In this document: positions 1-18,000 of the stretch, piece after piece
Layout: every line of letters begins with the position of its first letter
Position numbering within the stretch: the stretch's first letter is position 1
Position numbers and translations under genes: made by a program
Notes under the pieces: generated by a model
What the model was told of the DNA's origin: nothing
The model's database searches: none
The model's input: only the letters and a program-made list of their open reading frames with translations
IMG/VR virus record: IMGVR_UViG_3300032053_000071
Span: 1 to 61,985 of that record
Direction: 5' to 3' (one strand)
DNA length: 61,985 bases
DNA from: a virus
Lineage: Duplodnaviria > Caudoviricetes

Positions 1-127
1 AAGAAGAACCACCACTTAGCACCGCAGTATTTAAGGCGGTCATGGACCACGGAGTTGTCGTTCAGATACATGACAATGATTCCATGACTGAGGACGAGTC
101 TGATCTTCTTGGAGAACTTAATCATAA
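1..127. repeat. Direct terminal repeat, identical to 61859-61985 (circular assembly overlap)
   Basis: AAGAAGAACCACC...AATCATAA occurs at both ends; the ORF starting at 61720 continues in frame through it. Confidence 0.95.
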
Positions 128-272
128 TACTATTAAGGACAGGCTACAATCATTGGTTAACAATAAAGATTATTCATACGCATTAGAGCAAGAACTAAAT
201 GGAACCGGCGACGCAGCAACAAGCGATGTAGTGTTTCAGTTTCTTGTAATGGGAGAATGCATATTCAGTTAA
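1..272 (+). CDS. 3' part of a hypothetical phage protein that starts at 61720 (about 136 aa in total)
   Basis: ORF 42..272 is in frame with ATG 61720 (MKITIEKEISREILENIFVTALEGGSNDW...) across the junction. Confidence 0.8.
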   Translation, partial: EEPPLSTAVFKAVMDHGVVVQIHDNDSMTEDESDLLGELNHNTIKDRLQSLVNNKDYSYALEQELNGTGDAATSDVVFQFLVMGECIFS

Positions 273-292
273 CAACCTAAAAAAGATTAATT

Positions 293-538
293 ATGACATC
301 AATAGAATGGTTAGTAGAAGAAATAAAAACTTCAAAGTATTATTTAAAATTAATGGCAGAAATAAAAAGTAGAAGTACAATATTACAACCTAACATATTT
401 GAACAAGCAAAAGAAATGGAAAGGCAACAAATTATGACAGCTTTTACTCAAGGAGATATATTTGGAGCAGATTACTTTGACGGAGTAAATATAACGGAAG
501 AAAATTATTATAACCAAACTTTTGTTGATGTCGATTAG
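293..538 (+). CDS. Hypothetical phage protein
   Basis: 81-aa ORF with AT-rich leader, co-oriented with neighbours. Confidence 0.65.
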   Translation: MTSIEWLVEEIKTSKYYLKLMAEIKSRSTILQPNIFEQAKEMERQQIMTAFTQGDIFGADYFDGVNITEENYYNQTFVDVD

Positions 539-542
539 CCTT

Positions 543-639
543 GCCACTAACGGTATCGGGCTTGGCGAAGGTGGGCTTGTAGGATGCTCAATTTTAGCAG
601 GATGTGTCTGCCCACTTTTGCCAAACCCGTGTTATAAGC
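543..639. repeat. attC-like imperfect hairpin, copy 1
   Basis: GCCACTAAC ... CGGGCTTGGCGAAGGTGGGC-loop-GCCCACTTTTGCCAAACCCG ... GTTATAAGC; AAC at 549 to GTT at 633 spans 85 nt; near-identical to copy 2. Confidence 0.75.
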
Positions 640-675
640 TGGCTGCGGTTAATTAAACGAAAATCTTAAATTGAA

Positions 676-1302
676 ATGAAAATATTAGTAGGATGTGAGG
701 AAAGCCAGGAAGTAACTAAAGCCCTAAGAGAATTAGGATTTGAAGCGTTTAGTTGCGACTTGCAGGAATGTTCAGGCGGAAAACCTGAATGGCATTTGCA
801 AATGGATGTTTTTGAAGCGATAAAATTAGGATGGGATATGGCGATATTTTTCCCGACTTGCACATATTTAACGATAAGTGCGAACAAATGGTATAAAGAC
901 CAACCACCACGCAAAAGCGGAACATTAGTAGGAGAGGAAAGAAGGGATGCAAGAATTGAAGCAATTGATTTTTTTATGAGGCTTTACAATTGTGAAATAC
1001 CAAATGTTGCTATCGAAAACCCGATTGGCGTAATGAGTAGCGAATTTAGAAAGCCTGACCAAGTATTGCAACCCTGGATGTTTGGACACGGAGAAACGAA
1101 AGCAACTTGTTTATGGCTGAAAGGATTGCCGAAATTGATACCAACAAACATAGTTGAAGGTAGAGTGCAAAGATTGCACCTATTGCCAAAAACAAAAGAT
1201 AGGGCAAAACTCAGAAGCAAAACATATCCAGGAATTGCAAAGGCTATGGCTGAACAATGGGGAACTTTCATTCGCAGCAGGAACGTAGCAGCTTGCTTAT
1301 AA
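676..1302 (+). CDS. Short phage-type DNA cytosine methyltransferase-like protein
   Basis: N-terminal ILVGCEES...AFSCDL, catalytic-like FPTC, and IENP motifs. Confidence 0.7.
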   Translation: MKILVGCEESQEVTKALRELGFEAFSCDLQECSGGKPEWHLQMDVFEAIKLGWDMAIFFPTCTYLTISANKWYKDQPPRKSGTLVGEERRDARIEAIDFFMRLYNCEIPNVAIENPIGVMSSEFRKPDQVLQPWMFGHGETKATCLWLKGLPKLIPTNIVEGRVQRLHLLPKTKDRAKLRSKTYPGIAKAMAEQWGTFIRSRNVAACL

Positions 1303-1391
1303 CGTTTTCGGGCTTGGCGAAGGTGGGCTTGTAGGATGCTTAAAGTTAGCAGAATGTGTCTGCCCACTTTTGCCAAACCCGTGTTATGCAC
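1295..1391. repeat. attC-like imperfect hairpin, copy 2
   Basis: GCTTATAAC...GTTATGCAC; AAC at 1301 to GTT at 1385 spans 85 nt; stem arms identical to copy 1, with differences in the spacer and loop. Confidence 0.75.
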
Positions 1392-1446
1392 AGTACGGTT
1401 TATTTAACACAAACTTTAATACAAAGAACTAAAAAAAATTTAAAAA

Positions 1447-2394
1447 ATGAGCGTTGGACAAAATATTTTTGAAAAAAATAAAATATATCACGGTGATTGT
1501 TTGGAAGTAATGAAACAAATATCTGATAAGAGTATATCATTAGTCGTGGTAGATTTACCTTATAATATTGGTAAAGCATATAAAAGTGATTTAGAATGGG
1601 ATAAGTGGAATACTATTGATGAATATATTAAATGGGTTGGAATGGGGTTTAAAGAAGTAGAGAGAATATTAAAAGATAATGGTTCTTTTTATTGGTTTCA
1701 CAACGATTTTGAAACATTGTGTGAAATACAACAATGGATTAAAAAAAATACCAATTTTAAATACAGACAATTTATAAATTGGAATAAAAGATTTGATGGT
1801 GGTAAAAAGAAATCTTATTTAGATGGTTATGTAATGGAAGAAAGAACAAAAAACTATTATAAAATGTGTGAGTATATTATGTATTATACATTTGAAAATA
1901 GTTGGAAAATTAAAACCGAAAGAGAAAAACGAGCATTAAAACAAACTGATATTTCAAAGGAAATAAAATCTAAAAATGATAATTTTACAGGTTGGTTTTC
2001 AAATATTGAAAGTGGAAAGTATTTTCCAACAAATGAAACAATTAAACCAATAACAAAATATCTTGGATTAACAATGGATGATTTGGTTCATACTTTTAAT
2101 AACCAAAAATTACATCATTCGGTTTGGAATTACGAAATAACCGAAAAAACAATACACCCAACACAAAAACCGTTGGATTTAATAAAAAACATAATACTAC
2201 ATAGTTCAAATGAAGGAGATTTAGTTTTAGATTATACCGCAGGTTATTCAACAACTGCTATCGCTTGTATAGAAACTAAACGAGATTATATTATGATTGA
2301 AAAAGATGATGAATTTTATAAACATTCTTTAAAAAGGGTGGAAGATTTTTTAAATTCTTTTTCTCACGAAACTTCAAAAGAAGATGAAAAGTAG
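1447..2394 (+). CDS. N4-cytosine/N6-adenine DNA methyltransferase (beta class) with internal XRE-like HTH
   Basis: GDCLEVM, DLPYN (DPPY-type), HPTQKP, GDLVLDYTAG..TTAIAC; central KTEREKRALKQTDIS...FSNIESGKYFP segment; very AT-rich. Confidence 0.85.
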   Translation: MSVGQNIFEKNKIYHGDCLEVMKQISDKSISLVVVDLPYNIGKAYKSDLEWDKWNTIDEYIKWVGMGFKEVERILKDNGSFYWFHNDFETLCEIQQWIKKNTNFKYRQFINWNKRFDGGKKKSYLDGYVMEERTKNYYKMCEYIMYYTFENSWKIKTEREKRALKQTDISKEIKSKNDNFTGWFSNIESGKYFPTNETIKPITKYLGLTMDDLVHTFNNQKLHHSVWNYEITEKTIHPTQKPLDLIKNIILHSSNEGDLVLDYTAGYSTTAIACIETKRDYIMIEKDDEFYKHSLKRVEDFLNSFSHETSKEDEK

Positions 2395-2407
2395 TATTGT
2401 GCATAAC
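2394..2407. repeat. Terminal half-site of the cassette array (AAC box without hairpin)
   Basis: GTATTGTGCATAAC is the reverse complement (one mismatch) of GTTATGCACAGTAC at 1383. Confidence 0.6.
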
Positions 2408-2468
2408 TCATATATTCACGCAATTAACTTCGCCTATTTAATTATATAGAACAATTAAAACAAAGACA

Positions 2469-2642
2469 ATGATAACGATAGAAAAAATAATACAAGACGA
2501 GAAGAAAATGCCCAAGCCTAATCAAGACCTCATCAATAACTTAGAGGCTTTCATTAGCACCGGCACGATAACAATAACAGCATCAAACAACCATATGTGT
2601 ATCAACAGCGACAATGGGAATTATAAAAATAATATAAATTAA
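2469..2642 (+). CDS. Small hypothetical protein (57 aa, not in the ORF track)
   Basis: Hand translation MITIEKIIQDEKKMPKPNQDLINNLEAFIS...; A-rich leader. Confidence 0.5.
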   Translation: MITIEKIIQDEKKMPKPNQDLINNLEAFISTGTITITASNNHMCINSDNGNYKNNIN

Positions 2643-2668
2643 ATTGCTGTATTTATAAACAATTCCAC

Positions 2669-2676
2669 TATCTTTG
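2669..2676 (+). promoter_or_regulatory. Bacteroidota-type -7 promoter element
   Basis: TATCTTTG matches TAnnTTTG; lies 20 nt before ATG 2696, with a TTG upstream at 2644. Confidence 0.6.
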
Positions 2677-2695
2677 TGGAAACAAATCAAATCAA

Positions 2696-3001
2696 ATGAA
2701 ATCAGACATCTTCAATCAGTATGCCTCTACTATAGCCGACATGTCAGGCATAGATAAGGAGGATTTGTTCTCAAAGAACAAGACAAGAACGATATCAGAA
2801 GCACGTCACTTGTTATACTATCTGTGTAACAAAAGGATGATTGCCGTATCGTACATCAAGAAGTACATGGAGGACAACGGCTACAAGGTTGGCTTCTTCC
2901 CAATTACTTATGGTATTAAGATAGCAAAGCAAAAGGTTGATAAAGACCCTGACTACCTATCGTTGATATCTAAGATAGACAAGAGAATCACTATTAAATA
3001 A
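2696..3001 (+). CDS. DnaA domain IV-like HTH protein
   Basis: DLFSKNKTRTISEARHLLYYLC resembles the DnaA C-terminal DL.S..R...I..ARQ.AMYL pattern. Confidence 0.6.
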   Translation: MKSDIFNQYASTIADMSGIDKEDLFSKNKTRTISEARHLLYYLCNKRMIAVSYIKKYMEDNGYKVGFFPITYGIKIAKQKVDKDPDYLSLISKIDKRITIK

Positions 3002-3023
3002 TAATCAAATCAAATCAAACAAC

Positions 3024-3635
3024 ATGGCAGACAAAAATTCAATCTTTCAAACGCTTTCGTCCATTAGCGTAAAGGACAAAATTGAGCGTAAGGGTAATCT
3101 TGATTACCTGTCTTGGGCAAACGCTTGGGGAACGCTAAAGGCTAATTACCCTGACGCACAGCGTAGGGTGTATGAGCATGACCACACCGGATTCAATTAC
3201 TTTACTGATGGTAGGACTGCTTGGGTAAAGGTAGGTATAGTTATCGGCGACTTAGAGCACGTAGATTACCTACCTATTATGGACTTCAGAAACAATGCCA
3301 TACCTATTGAGAAGATAACATCAATGGACGTTAACAAGGCTATACAGCGTAGCACAGCTAAGGCTATCGCTATGCATGGTCTTGGACTAAGCCTATGGAC
3401 AGGCGAAGATGTACCTGAGTTGACTACTGACGCACCTGCAAAGGCAGACAAGACTGATAAGGCAGTTAAGTTAATTACGCTAAGCAAGGGATCAGAGAAT
3501 TGGGACAACGTAGTTAAGTATGTTGAGACTAACAAGGAGTTAGGCTTTGAGAAAATCAAGCAGCAGTTGTCAAGGAAGTACGCACTTAGTCCTGCAGTAG
3601 TAAAGGAACTATCATCTTTAACCGATAAATCTTAA
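3024..3635 (+). CDS. Single-strand annealing protein (Sak3/DUF1071-like)
   Basis: IERKGNLDYLSWANAW, LPIMDFRN, DVNKAIQRSTAKAIAMHGLGL..GED motifs; next to an exonuclease. Confidence 0.8.
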   Translation: MADKNSIFQTLSSISVKDKIERKGNLDYLSWANAWGTLKANYPDAQRRVYEHDHTGFNYFTDGRTAWVKVGIVIGDLEHVDYLPIMDFRNNAIPIEKITSMDVNKAIQRSTAKAIAMHGLGLSLWTGEDVPELTTDAPAKADKTDKAVKLITLSKGSENWDNVVKYVETNKELGFEKIKQQLSRKYALSPAVVKELSSLTDKS

Positions 3636-3638
3636 TCC

Positions 3639-4400
3639 ATGGAAAATATGATTTTTGATACACTACAAAGTGAACTCATAGAAAAATTAAAAGACGACAA
3701 AGAATATTATTCAGGCATTGGAAAGAATTACCTATCCAATTCTGACATCGGAATCCTGCTTAACAATCCTAAGGACTTTGGAAAACCAAGAGAAGACAAC
3801 AAGAATTTTGCTGATGGACGTTATTTTCATCAGCTTCTTCTTGAGCCTGAAAAGGCTGATGTTGCTCATGTTGTGGACGTAAGTACACGCACAACGAAAG
3901 AATACAAGAACTATTGTGAGGACAATAACATAGCTTTTTGTATGTTAAAGAAGGAGCAAGATGAAATTAAAAAACTTGTCTCAATAATTAGAGGCAATAT
4001 TCAATTTTATGACGATATTTACGCTCCGGGAAACGAATTTGAGGTGCCTTCCATTGGAGTTATTCATGGTATGAATTGGAAAGGTAAAGCTGACATAGTA
4101 GGGAATGATTTTATCATAGACTTAAAAACAACAAGTGATGTACACAAATTCAAATGGTCAGCAAAGTCATATAACTATGACTCTCAGTGTTACATCTATC
4201 AGCAGTTATTTGGACGTCCGTTGGCTTTCTACGTTATCGACAAAGGTACCGGTCAACTCGGGATATTCAGACCTACAGAAAATTTCATTAAAGGTGGTGA
4301 GGTGAAGGTTGCAAAAGCTATTGAAGTATATAACAAGTTCTTTAGCGATGATTCACATGACGATATCGCTAACTACTATATTGACGAAACACTAGATTAA
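3639..4400 (+). CDS. PD-(D/E)XK exonuclease (RecE/ExoVIII-like)
   Basis: LSNSDI, G..FH..LLEP, KGKADIV, IIDLKTT, YDSQCYIY. Confidence 0.85.
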   Translation: MENMIFDTLQSELIEKLKDDKEYYSGIGKNYLSNSDIGILLNNPKDFGKPREDNKNFADGRYFHQLLLEPEKADVAHVVDVSTRTTKEYKNYCEDNNIAFCMLKKEQDEIKKLVSIIRGNIQFYDDIYAPGNEFEVPSIGVIHGMNWKGKADIVGNDFIIDLKTTSDVHKFKWSAKSYNYDSQCYIYQQLFGRPLAFYVIDKGTGQLGIFRPTENFIKGGEVKVAKAIEVYNKFFSDDSHDDIANYYIDETLD

Positions 4401-4404
4401 AATG

Positions 4405-4458
4405 CTTGTCAGTTTACTTAGCCTCAGGGGTGTACTGATAAGATAAATAGACTGAGGC
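4405..4458 (+). promoter_or_regulatory. Predicted H-type RNA pseudoknot in the leader of the putative SSB gene
   Basis: CTTGTCAGT (4405-4413) pairs with ACTGATAAG (4434-4442); GCCTCAG (4421-4427) pairs with CTGAGGC (4452-4458); the stems are interleaved. Confidence 0.55.
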
Positions 4459-4478
4459 AAATTTAAAAATTAAAAAAA

Positions 4479-4799
4479 ATGGCACAAGACGAAAAAATCT
4501 TTGCAGACGGATTCAGTTTCAAAAGAAATGAAAACGCACCCGACTTTGTAGTTGGAAGACTTTCAATGAAAGTAGATGACGCTATCGCTTTTATGCGTGA
4601 GCATGACAAGAAAGGATGGATTAACCTAAGTATTAAAACAGCACGTAGTGGGAATCATTACGTTGAGTTGGATACGTTTGAACCCAAAGGTTCAGCAGGT
4701 AAGGATTCAGACAGCAGCAGTAGCGTTAGTAAAAAATCATCAAGACCAAAAGTAAAAGAGGCTATTGAGTCTGATGATGACGATAAGTTGCCGTTCTAA
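4479..4799 (+). CDS. Putative single-stranded DNA-binding protein
   Basis: Small beta-rich N-terminal domain, disordered linker, acidic tail ending DDDDKLPF; follows annealing protein and exonuclease. Confidence 0.65.
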   Translation: MAQDEKIFADGFSFKRNENAPDFVVGRLSMKVDDAIAFMREHDKKGWINLSIKTARSGNHYVELDTFEPKGSAGKDSDSSSSVSKKSSRPKVKEAIESDDDDKLPF

Positions 4800-4821
4800 C
4801 CTATTACCGAAGCCTAAAAAT

Positions 4822-4845
4822 GGGGAGCTAGTCTCCCCTTTTTTT
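4822..4845 (+). terminator. Intrinsic terminator
   Basis: GGGGAG-CTAGT-CTCCCC followed by T7. Confidence 0.85.
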
Positions 4846-4881
4846 ACCACTTTACTATGCCAATAATGATAAATAAAGACC

Positions 4882-5017
4882 CCCTACTCTTTCTATATAT
4901 ATTTATATACTCTTTTCTTTTTTATTAATTACGTTTTGAATTTAAAATCGACATAAAAGACATTAGTAATAGTAATCAATTAGTTACAAAAATTAATCAA
5001 ACATAAAAACGGTATAA
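4882..5017. repeat. Origin-like AT-rich element, copy 1 (degenerate direct repeat of 52738-52861)
   Basis: Shared ordered blocks CCCTACTCT..TCTATATAT, T-tract, TTTAAAATYGACAT, GACATTAGTA, AATCAATWAGTTA, CGGTATAA. Confidence 0.6.
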
Positions 5018-5018
5018 C

Positions 5019-7445
5019 ATGGCATTACATGACATAACTATATTTAAAAACATCAGAGACACTGATACTCCCTTCTTCAGGCCTGTTCAGGCAATCCTTG
5101 AAAGGATTAAGGATGGAGCGACAAAGGAACTCATAAAGAAGATTAGACTAGAGAAGAGCAAGTCAGATAGGAATGAGATGAAGAAGCTACTGCCGGCTAT
5201 ATGCTTCAGCGGTACGTTTAATAAGAGGGCTGACAATGCACTCATAGAGCACAGCGGACTATTATGCTTGGACTTTGATGGATACGACAAGCAGAAGACC
5301 CTACTGCAGGATAAGGAGAACTTATCAAGAAGCAAGTACGTCTACTCAGTATTCATATCACCCTCAGGAGATGGCTTAAAGGTGCTCGTAAAGATACCTG
5401 CCGACCCTGAGAATCATACAAACTACTTCAATTCGCTAGAAAGGCACTTTAATTCGCCTTTCTTTGACAAAACGAGTAAGAACCTTAGTCGAGTGTGTTA
5501 TGAGTCCTATGACCCTCTAATACACGTAAACGAGAACTCGTCCATTTGGGACCTCATAGAGGAACCGGAATACAACGAGGTAAGCAAGGTTAAAGACTCC
5601 CCTACTATACCAATCACGGATGAGAATAAGATAGTAGAGATACTTGTTAAGTGGTGGACAACTAAGTACCCAATGCATGAGGGGCAACGTAACCACAACG
5701 CCTACGTTTTAGCTATGGCATTTAATGACTTCGGTATTAACAAAAGCCTTGCGTCCTACGTGCTGAATCAGTATGCTACTAGCGACTTCCCTATCAGGGA
5801 GATAGCCATTACGATTGACTCGGCATACAAGAATACCTCAAACTTCGGAACTAAGTACTACGAGGATGAGGAGCGTATCAATCAGATAAAGGGAAAGATT
5901 AGACGTGGTGTATCAAAAAAAGAGATTCGCTTCCAAATGCAAGACTCCAACTTGGATAGCGATATAATAGACGCAGTCCTTAATAAGATTGAGGAAGAGA
6001 ACGCAAAGCAAACATTTTGGACAAAGAACGATAAGGGAGTTATCAAGATAGTACACATACTATTCAAGCAGTTCTTGGAGGACTCAGGGTTCTACAAGTA
6101 TTGCCCGGAGGGTGGCAAGAACTACATCTTTGTTAAGGTAACGAACAACCTGATAGACCATACCTCAGAGAAAGAGATAAAGGACTACGTACTTACTCAC
6201 TTGTTAGAGATTGACGACATCAGCATATACAATTACTTTGCTGACAACACCCGGTTCTTTAAGGAGGAGTTTTTGTCTATGCTATCAACCATTGACATAT
6301 ACTTCATCGAGGACAATAAGGACGTTTCGTACCTGTACTACAAGAATTGTGGCATTAAGGTTACTAAGGATGAGATTATACCAATAGACTACCTTGACCT
6401 TGGTGGTTACGTATGGAAAGACCATGTTATTGACAGGAACTTTAACCTATGCAGCGTGACTAGCAGATGTGACTTCAAGAAGTTTATCAGCAACATCAAT
6501 GGCGGAGATCAGAACAGAGTCAAGTCTATGGAGAGCACAATGGGATTCCTTATGCACGGATACAAGAACCTATCGTTCTGTCCTGCGGTAATCCTAAATG
6601 ACGAAGTAATCAGCGACAATCCTGAGGGAGGTACAGGCAAGGGTTTAATTATGAACGCACTAAGCAAGATGAAGAAGCTCGTGGTTATAGATGGCAAATC
6701 GTTTGCCTTTGAGAGAAGCTTCGCTTATCAGTTGGTGTCAGCAGATACGCAGATACTTTGCTTTGATGACGTGAAGAAACATTTTGACTTCGAGCGACTA
6801 TTCAGTGTCGTTACAGAAGGATTGACGCTAGAGAAGAAGAACAAGGACGCTATTAAGATACCATTCAGTAGGTCGCCTAAGATAGCTATAACAACTAACT
6901 ACGCTATCAAAGGTGCTGGCAATTCATTCGCAAGACGTAAGTGGGAGTTAGAGTTACATCAGTTTTACTCAAAGGCTTTTACGCCACTTGATGAATTTGG
7001 TAAGCTGATGTTTGGCGATTGGAACGATGACGATTGGTGTGAGTTTGACAACTACATGATTGGATGCTTAAAAGATTACCTGAAGACAGGACTTGTCAAG
7101 TCAAAGTTTGTCAACTTAAAGATAAGACAACTATCAGCAGAGAGCTGCCACGAGTTTATCGAATGGTGCGGACTTGTTCATGGTCAGGACAGAAGTATGT
7201 CGCTTGACTCAGGCATACGGTTATACAAGAACGACTTATACTATAACTTTATAGACGAGTATCCTGACTACGGACCGAAGGCTAAGATGACTATAAGCAG
7301 AACACGTTTCTACAAATGGTTAGTGTCTTATGCAATCTATAAGGAAGGCGTGATGCCGGAGGAAGGTAGAGACCAAGCAGGCCGTTGGATAATAATAAGA
7401 AAGAAACAAGATTCTGAATATCAAAAACAATTAGATTATGAATAA
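5019..7445 (+). CDS. Primase-helicase (VirE N-terminal/BT4734-like primase domain plus P-loop helicase)
   Basis: LPAICFSGTF, HSGLLCLDFD, FISPSGDGLKVLV, SRVCYESYDP, EGQRN; Walker A GGTGKG and Walker B ILCFDD. Confidence 0.85.
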   Translation: MALHDITIFKNIRDTDTPFFRPVQAILERIKDGATKELIKKIRLEKSKSDRNEMKKLLPAICFSGTFNKRADNALIEHSGLLCLDFDGYDKQKTLLQDKENLSRSKYVYSVFISPSGDGLKVLVKIPADPENHTNYFNSLERHFNSPFFDKTSKNLSRVCYESYDPLIHVNENSSIWDLIEEPEYNEVSKVKDSPTIPITDENKIVEILVKWWTTKYPMHEGQRNHNAYVLAMAFNDFGINKSLASYVLNQYATSDFPIREIAITIDSAYKNTSNFGTKYYEDEERINQIKGKIRRGVSKKEIRFQMQDSNLDSDIIDAVLNKIEEENAKQTFWTKNDKGVIKIVHILFKQFLEDSGFYKYCPEGGKNYIFVKVTNNLIDHTSEKEIKDYVLTHLLEIDDISIYNYFADNTRFFKEEFLSMLSTIDIYFIEDNKDVSYLYYKNCGIKVTKDEIIPIDYLDLGGYVWKDHVIDRNFNLCSVTSRCDFKKFISNINGGDQNRVKSMESTMGFLMHGYKNLSFCPAVILNDEVISDNPEGGTGKGLIMNALSKMKKLVVIDGKSFAFERSFAYQLVSADTQILCFDDVKKHFDFERLFSVVTEGLTLEKKNKDAIKIPFSRSPKIAITTNYAIKGAGNSFARRKWELELHQFYSKAFTPLDEFGKLMFGDWNDDDWCEFDNYMIGCLKDYLKTGLVKSKFVNLKIRQLSAESCHEFIEWCGLVHGQDRSMSLDSGIRLYKNDLYYNFIDEYPDYGPKAKMTISRTRFYKWLVSYAIYKEGVMPEEGRDQAGRWIIIRKKQDSEYQKQLDYE

Positions 7446-11638: not shown

Positions 11639-12008
11639 TACGCCTGAAGACCTAAGAAGAGAAAAAAAAGCAATAGAATTGTTTGTAAATATGTTCAGCG
11701 GTTCCTACCAAAAGCTTGACCCCCAAGATGTAGACTATAAAGTCTTTGATAAAGATAACAAGCTGATTGCTTATGCTGAGGTTGTTAGCAGGGCAAGAAC
11801 AATGGTCACATCATATCCTCTTCCTATACCGGCAAAGAAACTTGTAAAGCTATTTGATAAAAGAATAACCCCTCTCATTATATGGTGTTGTGATGATGGG
11901 ATAATATATGCCAAAGCAAACGAGCTCAGAGGGGAAATCATTTCCGACTCTGAGCTCATTGTTTATTATAGCAAACAAAAAGAATTTAAGTACATTAGGT
12001 TTACTTAG
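11625..12008 (+). CDS. Hypothetical protein, possible restriction-endonuclease-like fold
   Basis: DVDY...YAEV pattern; last gene of the + arm, converging on the structural arm. Confidence 0.5.
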   Translation: MMTFDTPEDLRREKKAIELFVNMFSGSYQKLDPQDVDYKVFDKDNKLIAYAEVVSRARTMVTSYPLPIPAKKLVKLFDKRITPLIIWCCDDGIIYAKANELRGEIISDSELIVYYSKQKEFKYIRFT

Positions 12009-15000
12009 TATCCTCTTAACTTAATTTTTAGGTAACTTGATTTATAAGTTCCGTCTTTATTCTTTGCTCTTTTTTTACTTTTATGATAATTATACTCTTC
12101 ATCTTTCATCTGCCTTTTTTCTTTTCTTAAATCAGATTTGACTTCCTTTTCTGCATCGTCTTCTTCTCCAAATGTTTTATCATATAGGTCAGGATCGTAT
12201 CTCTTCATATCAGATTTGCTATCGTATCCTTGAAGCTGTTCTTCTAACTTTTCTTTCTCTTCCTTTCTTGTTAGTTTCTCTTCTTCATTTTGTTCGGTTC
12301 TTTTATAAGGGGCCTCCTTTGCCTCTCTTATCATCACTCTTATTTCTTTTATTTTAGTAGCATCTGTTTCATCATTTAACATTCTTCTAAGCGCCTCTAC
12401 CTCTTCTTTCATTTTAGCTTCTTTCTTTTTAAAAACCTCTGCTTTTTTTTCTGATGATTGACGAACAGAAGCTTCTTTACCACCCTCTTTTGTGCTACTA
12501 TTTTTCTTTGCTAATCTAAGTGAGTTTCTAAGAATAGCGTTCATCTCCGCAGGAAAGCCAATAAGAGAACTACCTGTAGATAATAATGCAACATCTCCTA
12601 ACGCACTAGCGGTTTTATTTGACACATATTTTTCTCTTCCGTACTCATCTATATACTTACCGGTTGTAGATATTTCAAACGCCTCAATTATTTGATCGGC
12701 TTTATCAATAGCTATACCATATAAACCCAAAGACTTTGCTCCATTTTTCTTAATACTCGTCATGAGATGAAACTTATCCTCGTCATCTATGTTCTCTAAA
12801 TCTTGAAAATAACTCATTACCTTATCAGTAGCTACAGCTACCGGAACATCCAACATAGGCAATGGAGAAAGTACATCAGTAACCATGCCTGTAGTTTGAG
12901 ACCTTTTTAATATCTCTTCTCTTTTCTTTTTATCATCATCTGTCTCATTTATACCCATTGCTTTAACTGCGACATTTGCTAACGTAGAAGCAATAACATA
13001 TTGCAAATACTTAAACGTAGCCATTTCTACGGCATAACCTGCAAGTGACCTTCTTGCGGTTGCCCTGTCTTCTTTTGTAGCTTCACCCTTTTTTGAAAAA
13101 GTAGTTTTCAAGTCGCTATACATTCTCATTGTCTGATTCATTCTAAAGCTTGCAAATGGCATCACCGTTTTTACCATTACATTTTTCAATGGGTCTTTGG
13201 TATTCATAAGTTTACCTTGCAAGTCGGCATCTGATATGTTCTGTTGTCTATCAACCATATCTTGAGCGTAATCCGCGGCCTCTTCATTTATCTTATCTTT
13301 TCCATAATCAAACTTTGATGGGTCTATACCTTGCTTCTTTAATCCTTTTTCATAATAAGTAATCCAAGAAGCTTTTGCTATCCATACGTCAGGCCTTTCA
13401 ATAAATGTTTTTAACGCTATCTCATTTGCCTTACCTAAAAAATCAATTATTTTTGATGCATTTGATGTATCAGCAGCCTCAGCTAATTTATTTATGGAAT
13501 CAACATTAACTCTAGACTTGCCACCCCTGATAGCAATTGCTCTTTGTGAATTATTAATAAAGTCTACCTTGTCTTTGTTCATAAAATAACGAAAATCAGG
13601 CATCCTTCCGGCATTGAGAAGTGTATTTATAGCAACAGGAATAGTTTGCTTAATAGGCTGAGTTATACCTGCCAATGCAGTAGCTGCACCTGCTGTACCG
13701 AGATTGCTAAGTTTTCTAAGAACACTTGTCAACTCATCTGTCTGAACAACTTGTCTTTGCCTTGTGGTTCTTATCAAGTCAGGAATAACTCCTTCCTTTC
13801 CGCTATTTCTAAATAACAAATCACGGTCTTCTTTATTAGGTATTATTTTCTTTATGGCTTTAGAAGAAAAGAACGACTCTATTTGTCTTACTGTTCCTGC
13901 AGTATTAATGTCCATCAAAGCATCCTGATATGCATTAATCATGTTCCTGTCAAAAGACAAGTCAAAGTATCTATCTTCCATACCATCAGCTTCAGGCCTT
14001 GTTGACTTCTCAAGTACGCCTGCCTTCTTTTTGTATACACCCTTGCCAAATATGTCGTTATTGCTATTATGGAATATTGACTCTCTTGAAGATGGCTCAA
14101 TGGTTTTCTCGCCTCCTGAAAGTAAGGAGAACTTAAAGTTAGTGTAGTTCAAATCTCTGTCTAACTTTTTATTGTAGATACTCTCAGACACATCAGCCAA
14201 TTGGTCGTATATATCAGACCACTTATCAATCCACCAATCAACAGCCTCAATGTTTTTATCGTCTGATTTTTTTAATACCTCATCAACTGTATTAGAATCT
14301 TTCAAGACTTTGTCGTATGCCTTCTGATATACATCAGCTAATTTACGCTCCTGCTCTGTTCCATCTCTCAAAAGCTCTATACTCTTTTCTGCTAACTTTT
14401 TCTTTCTTACAAACTCAGCCTTCTGCTGCTCTGGAGTTCCGGGTACGTCTCTTTTCATGGCTGCAATAATGCCTCTCTCGGCTACATTCTCAGCCGTATC
14501 AAATGCCTTGCCATTTGCTTTTTGTTTGTAGAACTCTTTAATGAATGAATCAGTAAGCACATTCATTGTTCTTTGTACGGAAGCCTTTTTGTTTACTAAC
14601 TCAGTAATGCCCGACAGTCTTTTAAACTCTTCTGATGCCGCTACACCACGGAACATCTGCTCTGTTAAATTAGGTAGCGTTGATATCTGCTGACCAAATG
14701 CTCTACCTGTTTTTTTGCTGAAGAATAATTTTAGTTTCTTAGCTACTACATTGTTTTCTATTGCCTTTGCTAAATTGTCTTTTGCTTTGTAGTCGGCATA
14801 AACGGTCTCCATGCTTGCAACTGATCCATTTCGAATGAAATTGTTTAGCGCATCAATAACACCAAGCTTTTCTTTGTCGCTAAGGTCTTTCATGTCCATA
14901 GACATAAACCTTTCAACAATCTTCTTTCTACCTTCAGACAAATCAATGTCCTCTCCGGTTAATGGGTCCTTGCCTGTGCGAAGTATCTCATCAACCATGG

Positions 15001-18000
15001 CAGCACTAGAGTCAAATATCTTGTTTACTCTTTCGGTTATCTTCTTAAGAAGACTATCATCTACCTTCTCGTTGCCTTGAACTTGACCTGTCTTAATTAA
15101 TTCAAGAACCTCGTCATCACTAAGGAACGTAGCGTCATCGCCCATTATTCCTCTTGCTGATTTTATTAGCTTGTCTTTATCAATTTTGTACTGCGCATCA
15201 AGCATCTTGTCAACATAATCGCCCATCTTAGCGATGTCAATCATGTCCGCTATTTTTATGGAATTATTCTTGTCCTTTGTAATTTTAGACCCTTCCAATG
15301 ACTCTCTTATTTTCTTGGCCATCTCATTGTACTCGTCAATATTTTCAACATCAGATGGACGTATTTTCAAGAATTGTTTTGCAAACACAGATAGGTCTGC
15401 ATTTTTCTTTTTATTGCTTGCAAGTGCTTTTATTGCTGCTCTTACGCCATTGGCATCATTTAATTTATTATCATACTCAGCATCTTCAAATAATTTCTCA
15501 GCATACTCAATAACTTTTTCAACTGCTGCATCATCCTCTAAATTAACCTTACTTATTTTGTTGAGTAAGGCGTCTACTTTTTTTGTGCTAATAGCTCCTG
15601 ACTTCTCTATTTGCTTGATGGCTTCTGCAAATACCTTTCTTCTCTCCATTAAATCCTTGGCAGTCTTTAATCCTTCTTTTACACCTCTGCCAAATGCCTT
15701 TATCTGCTCTTTAAGTGCAGTCTTCTCTGTCATGGTAACAACTTTAGGCGGCTCAACACCAAGTATTGTTTCAGGACTTGGAGACTTCTTTATTCTCTCG
15801 CCAAACTTCCTAACTACTTCCTTTACCATTGCATCTTGCTGAACTTGACTAGCGGTCTTGTATTCATTTGACTCTGTTAATATCTTCAATGCTTCTTCTT
15901 TAGAATCAGCAACATCTTTCTTATACGCTTCAGCTTCTGCCTTAGCCTTATCAAGCGCTTTCTTATTAGCCTCACTCTTATTGATTCTGTACTTATCCTT
16001 AGCTTTCTGCAAATCTCTATCAACATACTCCTTATACTTAGGTATTAGCAGTTCAATATCATCCATTACTCCTGTCTTAGTCTCACGACCTTCAGCCATG
16101 GTAACATCGGTAGGCTTACCTTCGGATACCGTAGCGCCGCCTGCACCAACAGTTACTGTAGTGCTTTCGGGTTTAGGGTTAGTAGTTTTTTGTTTTTTAG
16201 CTTTTTCTTTAGGAGGATTTTCTTTTAAATCGTTTTTAATAGTTTCTATATCTTCAGTATAATACCTATTGCTGTCTTCTCTGCTTTCTTTTACTTCCTC
16301 GTCTGATTCTCTTTTTCTTCTTGTTTCAAGCCAATCATCTGAGTTTATGAAATCGAGCATATGCTCTGCTCTTTTTAAAGATGCCAATCTTGGGTCTTTA
16401 TCATATAAGTCAGAATATTCATAACTATCTCCATCTTCTTCTCTACGTATGCGCTCGTCTTCTAAAAGATTATTTAATTTTATATTATCACTAATCTTTT
16501 TTTGTCTTTTAGTAATAGCCTCTTCAAAGTCATCTCTTTCTTTTTTAGCTTTGTTCAAATCTTCTATGGCAGCATCAGTATCATCTGCAGATGCTATTTT
16601 TCTTTTTGCTCTATTTACTTCATCAGTTAAATCAGAAAGCTTACGTTCTTCTTCTAACCTTAATTCTCTTTCTGTATTAGATTCATCCATCCATCCACTT
16701 GTCTTAGTCTCCGTTCCTTCGCCACCGGTAGTAACCTCAGTAGGACCACCACTTGTAGTAGCGGTAGTACTGCCGCCGGCTTGAATGGTTGTGCTTTCAG
16801 GCTTAGCCTCAGCAGCTTTATGCGCCTCAAGTGCAGCTTTGGCTCGATCAAGTATACTTACACTTGTCTCATCGTTTGGATTATCCTTAACATCTTCTTC
16901 CCAAAATTTAACCTTATCCTCTAGGTAAGCAATAGGGTTATCAAAGTATCTTTTAGCATCTTCCACATCTTGCTCATCGTAAGGATTGTCTAACTTTTCT
17001 TGTTGGTACGCATCTTCATCAGTGATGGCTTGCTTTTGTTCGGGAGTGAGGTTAGATTCGGCGTCTCCTTCGCCCACTTTTTGCAATCCCAATTCGGGTT
17101 GTTGGCCGAGTAACACGCTTTCATCTGTTGTTTGCTTTTGAATGGCATCTTCTTTTTGTTTATTGGTCATTAATTCGGTTAGCTCATTATTCAACTCTCC
17201 AAGCCTTGTTTTCTTGGCATCAATAAATGCTTTTATAGACGCTCTTTCTGAAGGTAATTTTGAGTCTGTAAACTTCTCTGACAAATCACTAAGCTCAGTA
17301 TCCAAATTTATTATCTCTGCATTCAGTTCTCTTTTTCTTGTACCAAACTCTGAATTGTCATAAGCATCGGCAATAGCCGATATCTTATCAATTATCATCT
17401 TCTTCTCGCTTACGCCAAAACTCTTATTGTTGTTTATTAAGTCAATAAGTGCATCTCTATGCTCAACAATGTCGTTAACTGTATTATGAGCATCTATTTT
17501 ATTTTGCAACTTAACAGCCTCATCTCCAAGAGTCTTCTTTTTTTGCATGTCAGGTTCCTTGAGGATAGCTTTTTTTATAGCATCCCTTGCAGTCATCATA
17601 GCCTGTATGTCATCTTGAGTAAGATTTGGGTCATAAGATACATCAAGGTTTGCCTTAGTCTCATTTATAACCCTTCCAAGCGAGTTAATAGGATTGTCAC
17701 TTAGTACGCTCTCATAGTAGTGGTTAGCTTCATTTTGGTTCTTATATATTGACCCGGCATGCAGTAAACTAAATCCAACGCCAGTGCCTGCCTCCATGAT
17801 CATCTCCTCAGTCGTCAATGCTCTTCTTTCTGTGGCAGCAACCCTCAATGCCTTAGCTGATGTAAACACACCTGCATTGGCAAGTGGATTTGATATAGCC
17901 GTAGCTATAGCACTATTAAGGCCTGTCTTTGATATAAATTTAGCTATAGCAGGAGAAACCTCACCTGCAGTCACACCAAGCACATGCATATACGCACCTT

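What the first reader, a model, noticed from the sequence alone, without database searches (positions are those of the whole stretch)
543..2407. Integron-like cassette array of DNA methyltransferases inside a phage with no integrase
Seen: two near-identical 85-nt imperfect hairpins bounded by AAC...GTT (549-633 and 1301-1385), each followed by one MTase gene. The sequence after each GTT is complementary not to its own hairpin's left flank but to the sequence before the NEXT AAC (631 with 1288-1303; 1383 with 2394-2407). Each unit would therefore form a fully paired site only when excised as a circle. Stop codons sit in or against the AAC box. Established: these are the hallmarks of integron cassettes (RYYYAAC...GTTRRRY attC sites). 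Inference: a Bacteroidota phage has captured anti-restriction MTases from a cassette pool, using a recombinase supplied in trans. This could be a phage-host cassette-exchange system.
Basis: partly seen in the sequence, partly recalled or inferred. Interest (0 to 1): 0.85.

Follow-up and report, generated by a model that had tools for sequence, protein, structure and literature searches.

The report
Integron-type methyltransferase cassettes in a phage
A virulent-looking Bacteroidota phage carries two DNA methyltransferase genes as mobile gene cassettes bounded by folded recombination sites of a family shared by many Bacteroidota bacteria and their phages, which points to an integron-like gene-swapping system used on both sides of the phage-host arms race.

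Summary
Two 87-nt hairpin elements (548-634, 1300-1386), each followed by a methyltransferase gene, are bracketed by gene-specific 15-nt arms that pair with each other across the gene. The same design recurs widely: 86 of 121 phage and 31 of 104 bacterial copies have the paired arms (controls 0-3). The arms covary, with an invariant G.T at position 11. Units are gained or lost exactly at the TAAC|GTT box: a 506-nt unit between two 99.9% identical Flavobacterium phages, and a metagenome contig that skips exactly unit 2 of the window. The window has no tyrosine recombinase. In Bacteroidota genomes and some phages the same elements lie beside a short XerA-like recombinase that lacks the integron-integrase insertion. 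Arrays end in a conserved attI-like motif, which the window also has (2408-2423). Bacterial cassettes carry defence genes in the canonical orientation. Phage cassettes carry methyltransferases with the gene inverted (88 of 90). A similar array (a CALIN with two methyltransferases) was published for Polaribacter phage P12002L in 2023, so the basic claim is a new member of a known kind. The family-wide architecture and the non-IntI recombinase look like a new variant.

The parts
271..313 (+). Possible minimal element ahead of ORF 293-538: TAAC 271-274, short AACC/GGTT stem, loop holding the ATG at 293, GTTA 310-313. Uncertain.
   Evidence: Contigs of runs X2, X3 and X4 match up to 307, 308 or 313 and then diverge (table 7). 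It is not recognised by the family covariance model.
293..538 (+). ORF of 81 aa with no family match; possible third (upstream) cassette cargo.
   Evidence: No Pfam or PHROG match. Arms 310-324 and 537-551 pair at only 10 of 15, but this includes the family's G-C at position 8, A-T at 10 and G.T at 11 (read; signature).
548..634 (+). Element 1: attC-like folded site, TAAC ... GTTA, 87 nt.
   Evidence: Family covariance model R1, built from 82 elements of other loci: 55.3 bits, E 5e-10, full length, + strand only. Hairpin fold. Contigs of X2, X3 and X4 carry the same element behind other upstream sequence, with the break exactly before 548.
631..645 (+). Left arm of cassette 1 (GTTA plus 11 nt); pairs with 1289-1303.
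   Evidence: Score 15/15 with the family's T.T and G.T at positions 10 and 11; I6. The identical arms flank the orthologous gene in Flavobacterium phages.
676..1302 (+). Cargo 1: putative DNA methyltransferase, 208 aa.
   Evidence: phrog_757, E 7e-62. Homologues are annotated as DNA methyltransferase in Flavobacterium and Cellulophaga phages.
1289..1303 (+). Right arm of cassette 1, ending in TAAC; holds the stop codon of cargo 1. End of unit 1 (552-1303).
1300..1386 (+). Element 2: attC-like folded site, 87 nt.
   Evidence: R1: 59.4 bits, E 8e-11, + strand only. An X3 contig matches through 1386 (the GTTA) and then carries other sequence.
1383..1397 (+). Left arm of cassette 2; pairs with 2393-2407.
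   Evidence: Score 14/15; I10.
1447..2394 (+). Cargo 2: N6/N4 DNA methyltransferase, 315 aa.
   Evidence: PF01555, E 9e-37; phrog_67, E 1e-57.
2393..2407 (+). Right arm of cassette 2, ending in TAAC. End of unit 2 (1304-2407) and of the array.
   Evidence: An X4 contig joins 1298 to 2403, skipping 1104 nt, which is exactly unit 2. X2 contigs carry other sequence before 2403 and 2405.
2408..2423 (+). attI-like terminal site of the array (T-N-N-Y-N-T-A-T-A-N-N-C-G-C-A-A).
   Evidence: Of 72 unique array-end flanks, 42 have CG[CA] at positions 11-13 after TAAC, against 597 of 13,529 control TAAC sites (4.4%). The window fits the consensus. The same motif lies between array and recombinase in L197, L230, L236, L229 and L133.

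Best explanation
Positions 548-2407 are an array of two mobile gene cassettes of the integron type, possibly three if 271-551 is counted. The array sits at a conserved attI-like site in a phage that has no recombinase of its own. Each unit is [G-TT..element..GTTA-arm, methyltransferase gene, arm'-TAAC]. When a unit is excised as a single-stranded or circular form, arm' and arm close a 15-bp stem under the element's own hairpin. This gives a complete structure-specified recombination site. Strand exchange occurs in the TAAC|GTT box on the strand written here as +, which corresponds to the integron 'bottom' strand. Shown: the anatomy; its recurrence and covariation in hundreds of cassettes; precise gain or loss at the box; cargo diversity; and physical linkage of the same elements to a short XerA-like tyrosine recombinase in Bacteroidota genomes and in some phages. 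Inferred: that this recombinase, supplied by the host or a co-infecting phage, moves the cassettes; and that the methyltransferases protect phage DNA from host restriction. Unlike classical cassettes, the phage cargo is inverted, so the element lies 5' of its own gene and can carry that gene's expression signals with it.
For: (1) Anatomy in the window.
(2) Family-wide flank pairing. The 14 nt after the element have a complement ending in TAAC within 3 kb downstream, with up to 2 mismatches, in 86 of 121 phage and 31 of 104 bacterial elements. The shuffled-arm control gives 2 and 0; the wrong-side control gives 3 of 87 and 1 of 65.
(3) On 98 unique arm pairs the stem is 15 bp. Positions 5-7, 9 and 12-15 show 3-4 Watson-Crick pair types each. 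Position 11 is G.T in 96%. Pairing stops at position 16, where only 8% pair.
(4) The element itself: 82 non-redundant copies give 16 consensus pairs, 15 of them with compensatory changes, plus a conserved G.U in 79 of 82.
(5) Precise indels. Phages mumin6-1 and mumin6-3 (99.9% identical) differ by one 506-nt unit whose ends lie in a 7-nt TAACGTT repeat, with no homology beyond it. An X4 contig skips 1299-2402, which equals unit 2, sharing only ATAAC. Mosaic breakpoints among Muminvirus genomes fall at the boxes.
(6) Mobility of cargo. Methyltransferase-1 cassettes occur behind at least 4 different elements and before at least 7 different neighbours, with compensatory arm variants. The 129 cassettes form 83 cargo clusters.
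(7) Recombinase linkage. In L197 the order is YR, then about 90 nt, then G|TTA-cassette-element-cassette-element. Seventeen of 240 fetched loci hold a full-length homologue. In 301 sampled Bacteroidota genomes the element occurs in 45 and the YR (E<=1e-40) in 114; 30 of the 45 hold both, against 84 of the other 256; in 9 genomes they lie within 10 kb. In four phage-like contigs the YR gene starts 20-50 nt after the last TAAC.
(8) A conserved array-end motif, also present in the window.
(9) Published precedent: a site from the P12002L array was recombined into attI1 by IntI1 (PMC9892861). P12002L shows the same arm and box design.
Against: No recombination was observed directly. The only contig that bridges a deleted unit of this phage has a 28-nt side, was laid at 90% likeness and comes from a metagenome, a class of joint the tool itself warns about. 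No near-isogenic relative of the window phage was found; the best Sak relative is 67% identical, so there is no empty site for this very genome. Most elements are not next to the recombinase: 15 of 45 element-bearing genomes had no YR hit, and 84 genomes had a YR without a detected element. The E<=1e-40 YR set also includes more distant small recombinases that may do other jobs. The standard attC covariance model could not be run, and Rfam has no matching family. The family model found the window's sites only with filters off. Some of its training sequences share the window's arm sequence because loci were fetched with an 18-mer taken from it. The linked recombinase lacks the IntI domain that reads attC extrahelical bases in integrons, so how it would recognise a folded site is unknown.
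Confidence: 0.8

Rival explanations
1. Modular shuffling by homologous or single-strand-annealing recombination between conserved intergenic promoter/terminator stem-loops, as with the PeSL motifs of T4-type phages. The phage's own Sak and exonuclease would do it, and no site-specific enzyme would be needed.
For: Sak SSAP (3024-3635) and a PDDEXK exonuclease (3639-4400) lie just downstream. The two elements are 91% identical direct repeats. Many phage elements carry A-rich leader-like loops, some with the start codon of the next gene. PeSL-mediated shuffling is published (PMC2839356, PMC4122927; seen in the search listing only).
Against: The mumin6-1/6-3 indel and the X4 joint share only 7 and 5 nt at their ends. 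The sequences beyond differ, and unit 2 of the window has no element after it to recombine with. Homologous recombination does not need, and would not maintain, 15-bp covarying pairing between the two ends of each cassette with an invariant G.T. The same elements are linked to a tyrosine recombinase in bacteria that lack the phage genes.
Confidence: 0.1
2. The hairpins and long-range arm pairings act in RNA, for example as processing sites, terminators or translational control of each methyltransferase mRNA. They would have nothing to do with DNA mobility.
For: On the + (mRNA) strand the mismatches are G.U wobbles, and the RNA fold is strong (-44 kcal/mol, z -2.9 and -3.5). Some elements hold the start codon in the loop.
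Against: In bacterial arrays the genes are on the opposite strand (31 of 39), where the conserved G.T pairs become C.A mismatches. Yet the same elements and arm rules hold. RNA function does not explain precise DNA gain and loss at the box, the cargo turnover or the recombinase linkage. Rfam has no matching family.
Confidence: 0.05
3. Non-autonomous single-strand transposons of the IS200/IS605 or REP/RAYT kind, with hairpin ends cut at a short target by an HUH/Y1 enzyme.
For: Hairpin-bearing units, a fixed 4-nt box and strand asymmetry are also features of those elements (recalled knowledge, not tested).
Against: Each unit has one element, not two different ends. Units stack head to tail at one locus and end at a conserved terminal site. 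The enzyme found linked is a tyrosine recombinase of the Xer/IntI kind. No search for HUH/Y1 genes was run, so this is not excluded by a direct test.
Confidence: 0.03

Closest known systems
[quoted passage not shown] 2023, PMC9892861)
   Same: It is an array of DNA methyltransferase genes separated by AAC...GTT hairpin sites in a phage of Flavobacteriia with no integrase. P12002L shows the same arm and box design: cassettes scoring 14-15 at 31120-30952, 30011-29237, 40764-40552 and 39518-39242. Its short elements with a TCGTTTTAATG loop recur in the family sampled here. One P12002L site was recombined by IntI1.
   Different: The paper predicted only two sites in P12002L, with 'divergent directions', and treated them as standard attC sites. 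From what I read, it does not describe the 15-bp covarying arms, the inverted cargo, the Bacteroidota-wide element family, the attI-like end or a linked non-IntI recombinase. Its supplementary tables (site coordinates, the other 14 CALIN phages) could not be seen.
Classical integrons (intI, attI, attC cassettes; sedentary chromosomal integrons with homogeneous attC sites and defence cargo)
   Same: Sites are specified by structure and have AAC/GTT cores. The crossover is consistent with G|TT. The part of the site split off by the crossover sits at the start of the cassette. Arrays begin at a primary site next to the recombinase. Elements are homogeneous within a genome. Bacterial cargo is defence genes, namely GmrSD, AIPR, TIR and RM enzymes, as reported for integrons in abstracts seen.
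   Different: The linked recombinase is a 266-298-aa XerA-like enzyme missing about 42 residues of the IntI-specific region. The basal stem is 15 bp with an invariant G.T, rather than a 7-bp R box. Arrays are short, with 1-3 elements per bacterial genome. Phage cassettes have inverted cargo (88 of 90). The IntegronFinder 2.0 paper reports almost no complete integrons in Bacteroidetes (passages read).
PeSL promoter/stem-loop cassettes of T4-type phages (PMC2839356, PMC4122927; search listing only)
   Same: Small accessory genes in a plastic region of a virulent phage are bounded by repeated stem-loop motifs that also seem to carry expression signals.
   Different: PeSL shuffling is ascribed to homologous recombination between the motifs. 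Here the junctions are at a 4-7-nt box, the two ends of each cassette covary, and a tyrosine recombinase is linked elsewhere.

Membership tests
Integron gene cassette / attC site (CALIN) | Inverted core sites R'' (..AAC) and R' (GTT..) at the two ends of the site | tested here: met
   TAAC 548-551 with GTTA 631-634, and TAAC 1300-1303 with GTTA 1383-1386. These are invariant in 98 of 98 arm pairs and 185 of 185 oriented elements. The bases after GTT fit GTTRRRY only loosely: GTTATAA and GTTATGC.
Integron gene cassette / attC site (CALIN) | Imperfect hairpin of 57-141 nt whose structure, not sequence, is conserved | tested here: met
   87 nt in the window; the family mode is 120-129 nt, range 48-252. 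There are 16 consensus pairs, 15 with compensatory changes. The size range 57-141 is recalled, not taken from a call.
Integron gene cassette / attC site (CALIN) | Extrahelical bases that mark the recombinogenic (bottom) strand | tested here: inconclusive
   No conserved bulges were identified. Instead there are conserved G.T pairs (arm position 11 in 96%; element columns 25/140 in 79 of 82) and a C.A mismatch. These make the + strand fold better than the - strand. The family model scores the + strand at 55-59 bits and the - strand at 5-6 bits.
Integron gene cassette / attC site (CALIN) | The part of R' beyond the crossover lies at the other end of the cassette, so the site is complete only in the circle | tested here: met
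   for the window; for the family.
Integron gene cassette / attC site (CALIN) | Gain or loss of whole cassettes by crossover at G|TT | tested here: met
   A 506-nt unit is bounded by TAACGTT in mumin6-1 versus mumin6-3. An 1104-nt skip, equal to unit 2, occurs in an X4 contig, with a short side. The crossover point can be placed only within 7 and 5 nt respectively; G|TT on the antisense strand is among the allowed positions.
Integron gene cassette / attC site (CALIN) | ORF on the top strand, upstream of its own attC | tested here: not met
   In the window and in 88 of 90 phage cassettes the ORF is inverted, so the element comes first and the gene follows. The feature is met in 31 of 39 bacterial cassettes.
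Integron gene cassette / attC site (CALIN) | Score above threshold with the IntegronFinder/HattCI attC model | not testable with these tools
   The model is not in Rfam. cmscan of 1-4000 at E<=10 gave only chance hits.
Integron gene cassette / attC site (CALIN) | Recombination by an integron integrase | not testable with these tools
   Reported for one site of the related P12002L array with IntI1 (PMC9892861); not for these sites.
Complete integron | intI gene next to the array | tested here: not met
   No PF00589 match anywhere in the 61,985-nt phage at E<=1.
Complete integron | The linked recombinase has the IntI-specific additional domain | tested here: not met
   The L197 recombinase aligns to VchIntIA (2a3v) at 6-182 = 5-181 and 202-276 = 243-317, which leaves 19 residues opposite 61. 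TIGR02249 scores 133-205 bits against a cut-off of 265, in split stretches, for 5 recombinases. The best model is NF040815 XerA at 184-219 bits against a cut-off of 220.
Complete integron | Primary insertion site (attI) at the recombinase-proximal end of the array | tested here: met
   The conserved end motif is present in 42 of 72 unique array ends against 4.4% of control sites. It lies next to the recombinase in 5 bacterial loci and is present in the window at 2408-2423. Its function as attI is inferred.
PeSL-type regulatory cassette | Repeated motif made of a promoter plus a terminator stem-loop, with exchange by homology between motifs | tested here: inconclusive
   Promoter activity was not tested. 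Junctions with only 5-7 nt of shared sequence argue against homology-driven exchange.

The most novel reading that the evidence does not exclude
Bacteroidota and their phages share an integron analogue that standard integron finders largely miss. It has structure-specified 48-130-nt sites with a 15-bp covarying basal stem and an invariant G.T, a conserved attI-like end, and a short XerA-like tyrosine recombinase without the IntI domain. Bacteria use it to stock defence genes (GmrSD, AIPR, TIR, RM). Phages use the same sites, and in some cases their own copy of the recombinase, to stock methyltransferases. In phage cassettes the cargo is inverted, so the site doubles as a portable 5' expression module. 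The window phage is a recombinase-less client of this system.
Probability: 0.5. Interest if true: 0.85.

Novelty: new variant of a known kind. Interest (0 to 1): 0.72.

Why it matters
Integrons are the textbook device for capturing genes, but they are regarded as nearly absent from Bacteroidota and rare in phages. If the reading holds, a large phylum and its phages run a parallel cassette system with a different, simpler recombinase. Both sides of the restriction/anti-restriction arms race would then draw on the same recombination chemistry. That would explain how closely related Flavobacterium phages differ in methyltransferase content and host range, a difference noted in PMC7077304. It would give a sequence signature for finding defence and counter-defence genes in Bacteroidota. 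It would also offer a minimal Xer-like enzyme that acts on folded single-stranded sites, which bears on the origin of integron integrases. All of this can be tested with established conjugation-based recombination assays.

Tried and rejected
Rfam scan of 1-4000 at E<=10 gave only chance-level hits: CRISPR-DR45 at 22 bits, mir-3926 at 18.7 and a snoRNA. No known RNA family matches.

A loose search for GTT...AAC inverted repeats (14 nt, up to 2 mismatches) gives as many hits in shuffled sequence (5-14) as in the window (12). It was dropped as a detector. A threshold of 12 of 15 on P12002L was also at noise level, with 88-135 hits in shuffles; only scores of 14 or more are used.

I looked for an empty site in relatives of this phage. 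The 80 loci found through the Sak protein are at most 67-68% identical in the matched segment. They carry few cassettes: 21 and 26 hits of 13 or more on the two strands, against 15 in shuffles. No near-isogenic comparison was possible.

The family model found nothing in the whole window with default filters. The two sites appeared only with filters off on 1-6000. The rest of the window was not searched with filters off.

The putative element at 271-313 is not supported by the model and remains a guess.

Depth gaps: X3 and X4 have almost no depth over 1606-2354, and X2 has little over 750-963 and 1178-1284. Only the X4 bridging contig is used as evidence.

Other joints were not interpreted. These are 574->612 and 1326->1364 (37-nt skips of the hairpin tip), 807->883, and 1442->2619. 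All have sides of 21-26 nt and may be assembly effects at inverted repeats or other organisms.

Small-share runs X7-X24 were not used to name habitats.

I considered whether the conserved 3' arm encodes a peptide. Its reading frame differs between cassettes (gp010 versus gp009 of filifjonk9-1), so this was dropped.

Literature: seven full-text searches found no paper describing this element family or an integron-like system with a XerA-like recombinase in Bacteroidota. Absence from this library is not proof of absence in print.

No search for serine recombinases or HUH/Y1 enzymes was run in the window.
Full report
WHAT IS THERE. The window is a complete 61,985-nt phage genome with direct terminal repeats. 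At its left end, two elements of 87 nt (548-634 and 1300-1386) are 91% identical over the 96-nt repeat that contains them. A 31-nt core occurs twice, against none in 100 shuffles. Each element starts with TAAC, ends with GTTA and folds into an imperfect hairpin. With DNA parameters the + strand folds at -21.2 kcal/mol (z about -3) and the - strand at -18 to -19.

Each element is followed by one gene. The first is 676-1302, matching phrog_757 'DNA methyltransferase' at E 7e-62, with no Pfam or PDB match. The second is 1447-2394, matching PF01555 at E 9e-37.

The 15 nt that begin with each GTTA pair with the 15 nt that end in the next TAAC: 631-645 with 1289-1303, and 1383-1397 with 2393-2407. 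Stop codons lie in or against the boxes. The phage has no tyrosine recombinase: PF00589 finds nothing at E<=1, while the control rings in 14 of 14 genomes.

THE SAME DESIGN ELSEWHERE. Flavobacterium phage filifjonk9-1 has six consecutive genes, each bracketed by such arms (all score 15/15) and separated by TAAC...GTTA spacers of other sequence. Its orthologue of methyltransferase 1 has identical arms but different elements on both sides.

An 18-nt piece of the window's 3' hairpin arm plus GTTA occurs in at least 120 IMG/VR contigs and at least 120 genome contigs.

Of the elements with at least 1 kb downstream, 86 of 121 phage copies and 31 of 104 bacterial copies have the complementary arm within 3 kb. 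With shuffled arms the counts are 2 and 0. On the wrong side they are 3 of 87 and 1 of 65.

On 98 unique pairs the stem is exactly 15 bp:
- Positions 1-4 are invariant.
- Positions 5-7, 9 and 12-15 show three or four Watson-Crick pair types each.
- Position 11 is G.T in 96%.
- Position 10 is A-T or T.T.
- From position 16 pairing is at chance.

Taking the spacers between adjacent cassettes, whatever their sequence, gives 231 unique elements. Of these, 185 could be oriented, and their length mode is 120-129 nt. Eighty-two non-redundant ones fold to a consensus of 16 pairs. Fifteen of those pairs have compensatory changes, and one G.U is conserved in 79 of 82. A covariance model built from these 82, none from the window, scores the window's elements at 59.4 and 55.3 bits (E 8e-11 and 5e-10) on the + strand and at 5-6 bits on the - strand. 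It did so only with filters off.

THE UNITS MOVE, AND WHERE THEY BREAK. Phages mumin6-1 and mumin6-3 are 99.9% identical and differ by one 506-nt unit made of an element plus a small gene. The unit's ends lie in a 7-nt TAACGTT repeat, and the sequence beyond differs. So a unit is [GTT..element..GTTA-arm, gene, arm'-TAAC], and the element travels with the gene that follows it.

Mosaic breakpoints among 48 Flavobacterium phage records fall at the boxes.

For the window itself, Logan contigs of four metagenome runs were laid at 90% likeness or better. They show:
- one X4 contig that joins 1298 to 2403, skipping 1104 nt, which is exactly unit 2, with ATAAC shared;
- contigs that carry the same element behind other sequence, breaking exactly before 548 (X2, X3, X4);
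- other sequence before 2403 and 2405 (X2);
- other cargo after 1386 (X3).
The bridging contig has only 28 nt on one side, so it is suggestive rather than proof.

Methyltransferase-1 cassettes occur behind at least four kinds of element and before at least seven different neighbours. Their arm variants have changed on both sides together. In all, 129 cassettes fall into 83 cargo clusters.

THE ENZYME AND THE PLATFORM. In the bacterial locus L197, read on the gene strand, the order is:
- a 279-aa tyrosine recombinase;
- about 90 nt of spacer;
- G|TTA-arm, an ORF of 196 aa, arm'-TAAC and an element;
- G|TTA-arm, a GmrSD gene, arm'-TAAC and an element.

Homologues of the recombinase lie in 17 of the 240 loci fetched with the 18-mer, including the viral contigs L014, L022 and L040. 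In four phage-like contigs the recombinase gene starts 20-50 nt after the last TAAC of the array; one of these arrays has six cassettes.

In 301 Bacteroidota genomes sampled evenly, the element occurs in 45 and the recombinase (E<=1e-40) in 114. Thirty of the 45 have both, against 84 of the other 256. In nine genomes the two lie within 10 kb on one contig (counted by hand from the tables). Only two element candidates per genome were scored, with a single query, so these are lower bounds.

The enzyme is closest to archaeal XerA (PDB 4a8e, 5hxy). It aligns to the Vibrio integron integrase (2a3v) with 19 residues opposite 61, so it lacks the IntI-specific insertion. Five such enzymes score below the curated cut-offs of both the XerA model and the integron-integrase models, and they match the latter in split stretches.

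Arrays end in a conserved motif. Of 444 cassette right ends, 364 are followed by G, the start of the next element. Of 72 unique non-G flanks, 42 have CG[CA] at positions 11-13, against 4.4% of control TAAC sites. The window's 2408-2423 fits the consensus, and so do the sites between array and recombinase in five bacterial loci. I read this as an attI-like site.

PHAGE VERSUS HOST. Relative to the element, the longest ORF is on the same strand, with the element first, in 88 of 90 phage cassettes. It is on the opposite strand, with the gene first as in classical integrons, in 31 of 39 bacterial cassettes. The eight exceptions include contigs that look like phage DNA binned into MAGs.

Ten representatives of phage cargo are N6/N4, C5 and MT-A70 DNA methyltransferases (seven) or have no family match (three). 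Ten bacterial representatives include Type I/IIG-like RM enzymes, AIPR, TIR/SEFIR and a PD-(D/E)XK nuclease. Together with GmrSD in L197, this is mostly defence-type cargo.

In many phage elements the loop holds an A-rich leader and even the start codon of the cargo. Because the crossover lies on the other side of the element, these signals stay with the gene when it moves.

HOW IT MOST LIKELY WORKS. Shown: the anatomy, covariation, precise boundaries, cargo turnover and recombinase linkage. Inferred: a unit leaves as a circle or single strand in which arm' and arm close the 15-bp stem under the hairpin. A tyrosine recombinase exchanges strands in TAA|C (equivalently G|TT on the other strand), with the attI-like end or with another element. 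The + strand, which bears the G.T wobbles, is the folded substrate; it corresponds to the integron bottom strand. The window phage, having no enzyme, depends on the host's or a co-infecting phage's recombinase. The methyltransferases would protect its DNA from restriction. Differences in methyltransferase content among Muminvirus phages have been linked to plating efficiency (PMC7077304; passages read).

RIVALS. Homology-driven shuffling at promoter stem-loops (PeSL-like), helped by the phage's Sak and exonuclease, does not explain junctions with 5-7 nt of identity, the covarying ends or the recombinase linkage. A purely RNA-level role fails because bacterial arrays are transcribed from the other strand, yet they keep the same rules. 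An HUH-type single-strand transposon was not tested directly but does not fit the linked enzyme or the ordered arrays.

COMPARISON WITH WHAT IS KNOWN. The closest published case is the CALIN of Polaribacter phage P12002L: two methyltransferases, with one site recombined by IntI1 (PMC9892861). That phage shows the same arms. So 'integron-type methyltransferase cassettes in a Flavobacteriia phage without integrase' is a new member of a known kind.

I did not find the following in seven full-text searches: the Bacteroidota-wide element family, its 15-bp stem with an invariant G.T, the attI-like end, the inverted self-expressing phage cassettes, or linkage to a XerA-like enzyme without the IntI domain. 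The IntegronFinder 2.0 paper reports only In0 elements and one complete integron in Bacteroidetes. I therefore rate the whole as a new variant of a known kind, with the caveats that supplements were closed and the library is incomplete.

As for membership, the sites meet the structural definition of attC-type sites. They fail two tested features of canonical integrons: cargo orientation in phages, and the IntI domain of the linked enzyme.

VERDICT. Confidence that this is a site-specific cassette array is 0.8. Confidence that the XerA-like enzyme is the recombinase is about 0.55. Interest is 0.72.

Noticed in passing
window 635-675 and 1387-1446; loci L025, L027, L036, L049, L055: After the left arm, cassettes with unrelated cargo share an A-rich leader (..GGTTRATTAAACGA..AAACTTAAAT..ATG). 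In the window, 1388-1452 weakly resembles the loop part of the 125-nt element model (13.1 bits, E 0.17). This suggests that the leader sits either in the loop or just after the arm.
   Followed up: partly
L003 50-110 and 901-980 (filifjonk9-1 gp010, gp009): In some phage elements the start codon of the cargo lies in the hairpin loop. The first 15-25 codons are then encoded by the conserved 3' arm, the GTTA box and the left arm. The reading frame through the arm differs between cassettes.
   Followed up: partly
genomes G001, G002, G003, G005: The roughly 130-nt bacterial form of the element is 96-97% identical between four genomes whose fetched contigs are titled as different Bacteroidota lineages. 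It is present in only 1-3 copies per genome. This points to recent horizontal spread.
   Followed up: partly
L005 (P12002L) 30060-30010; L064, L067, L077, L129, L166, L202: A short class of elements (48-50 nt) has a TCGTTTTAATG loop. It is shared by the published P12002L array and by several metagenomic phage and bacterial loci.
   Followed up: no
window 574-612 and 1326-1364: In run X2, single contigs skip the 37-nt tip of each hairpin. These may be shorter-loop variants or an assembly effect at the inverted repeat.
   Followed up: no
window 2696-4400: Just downstream of the array lie a DnaA-C-like HTH protein, a Sak single-strand annealing protein and a PD-(D/E)XK (DUF3799) exonuclease. This is a recombination module that could also act on repeated elements.
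   Followed up: partly
window 12005-19108 (-) and 23626-28677 (-): Two very long ORFs (2367 and 1683 aa) lie in the structural region. They were not examined.
   Followed up: no
L149, L177, L146, L200 (genome contigs): Contigs titled as Nitrosotalea, Gammaproteobacteria or Limnohabitans MAGs carry phage-type cassettes of this Bacteroidota family. They are probably phage DNA mis-binned into those MAGs.
   Followed up: no
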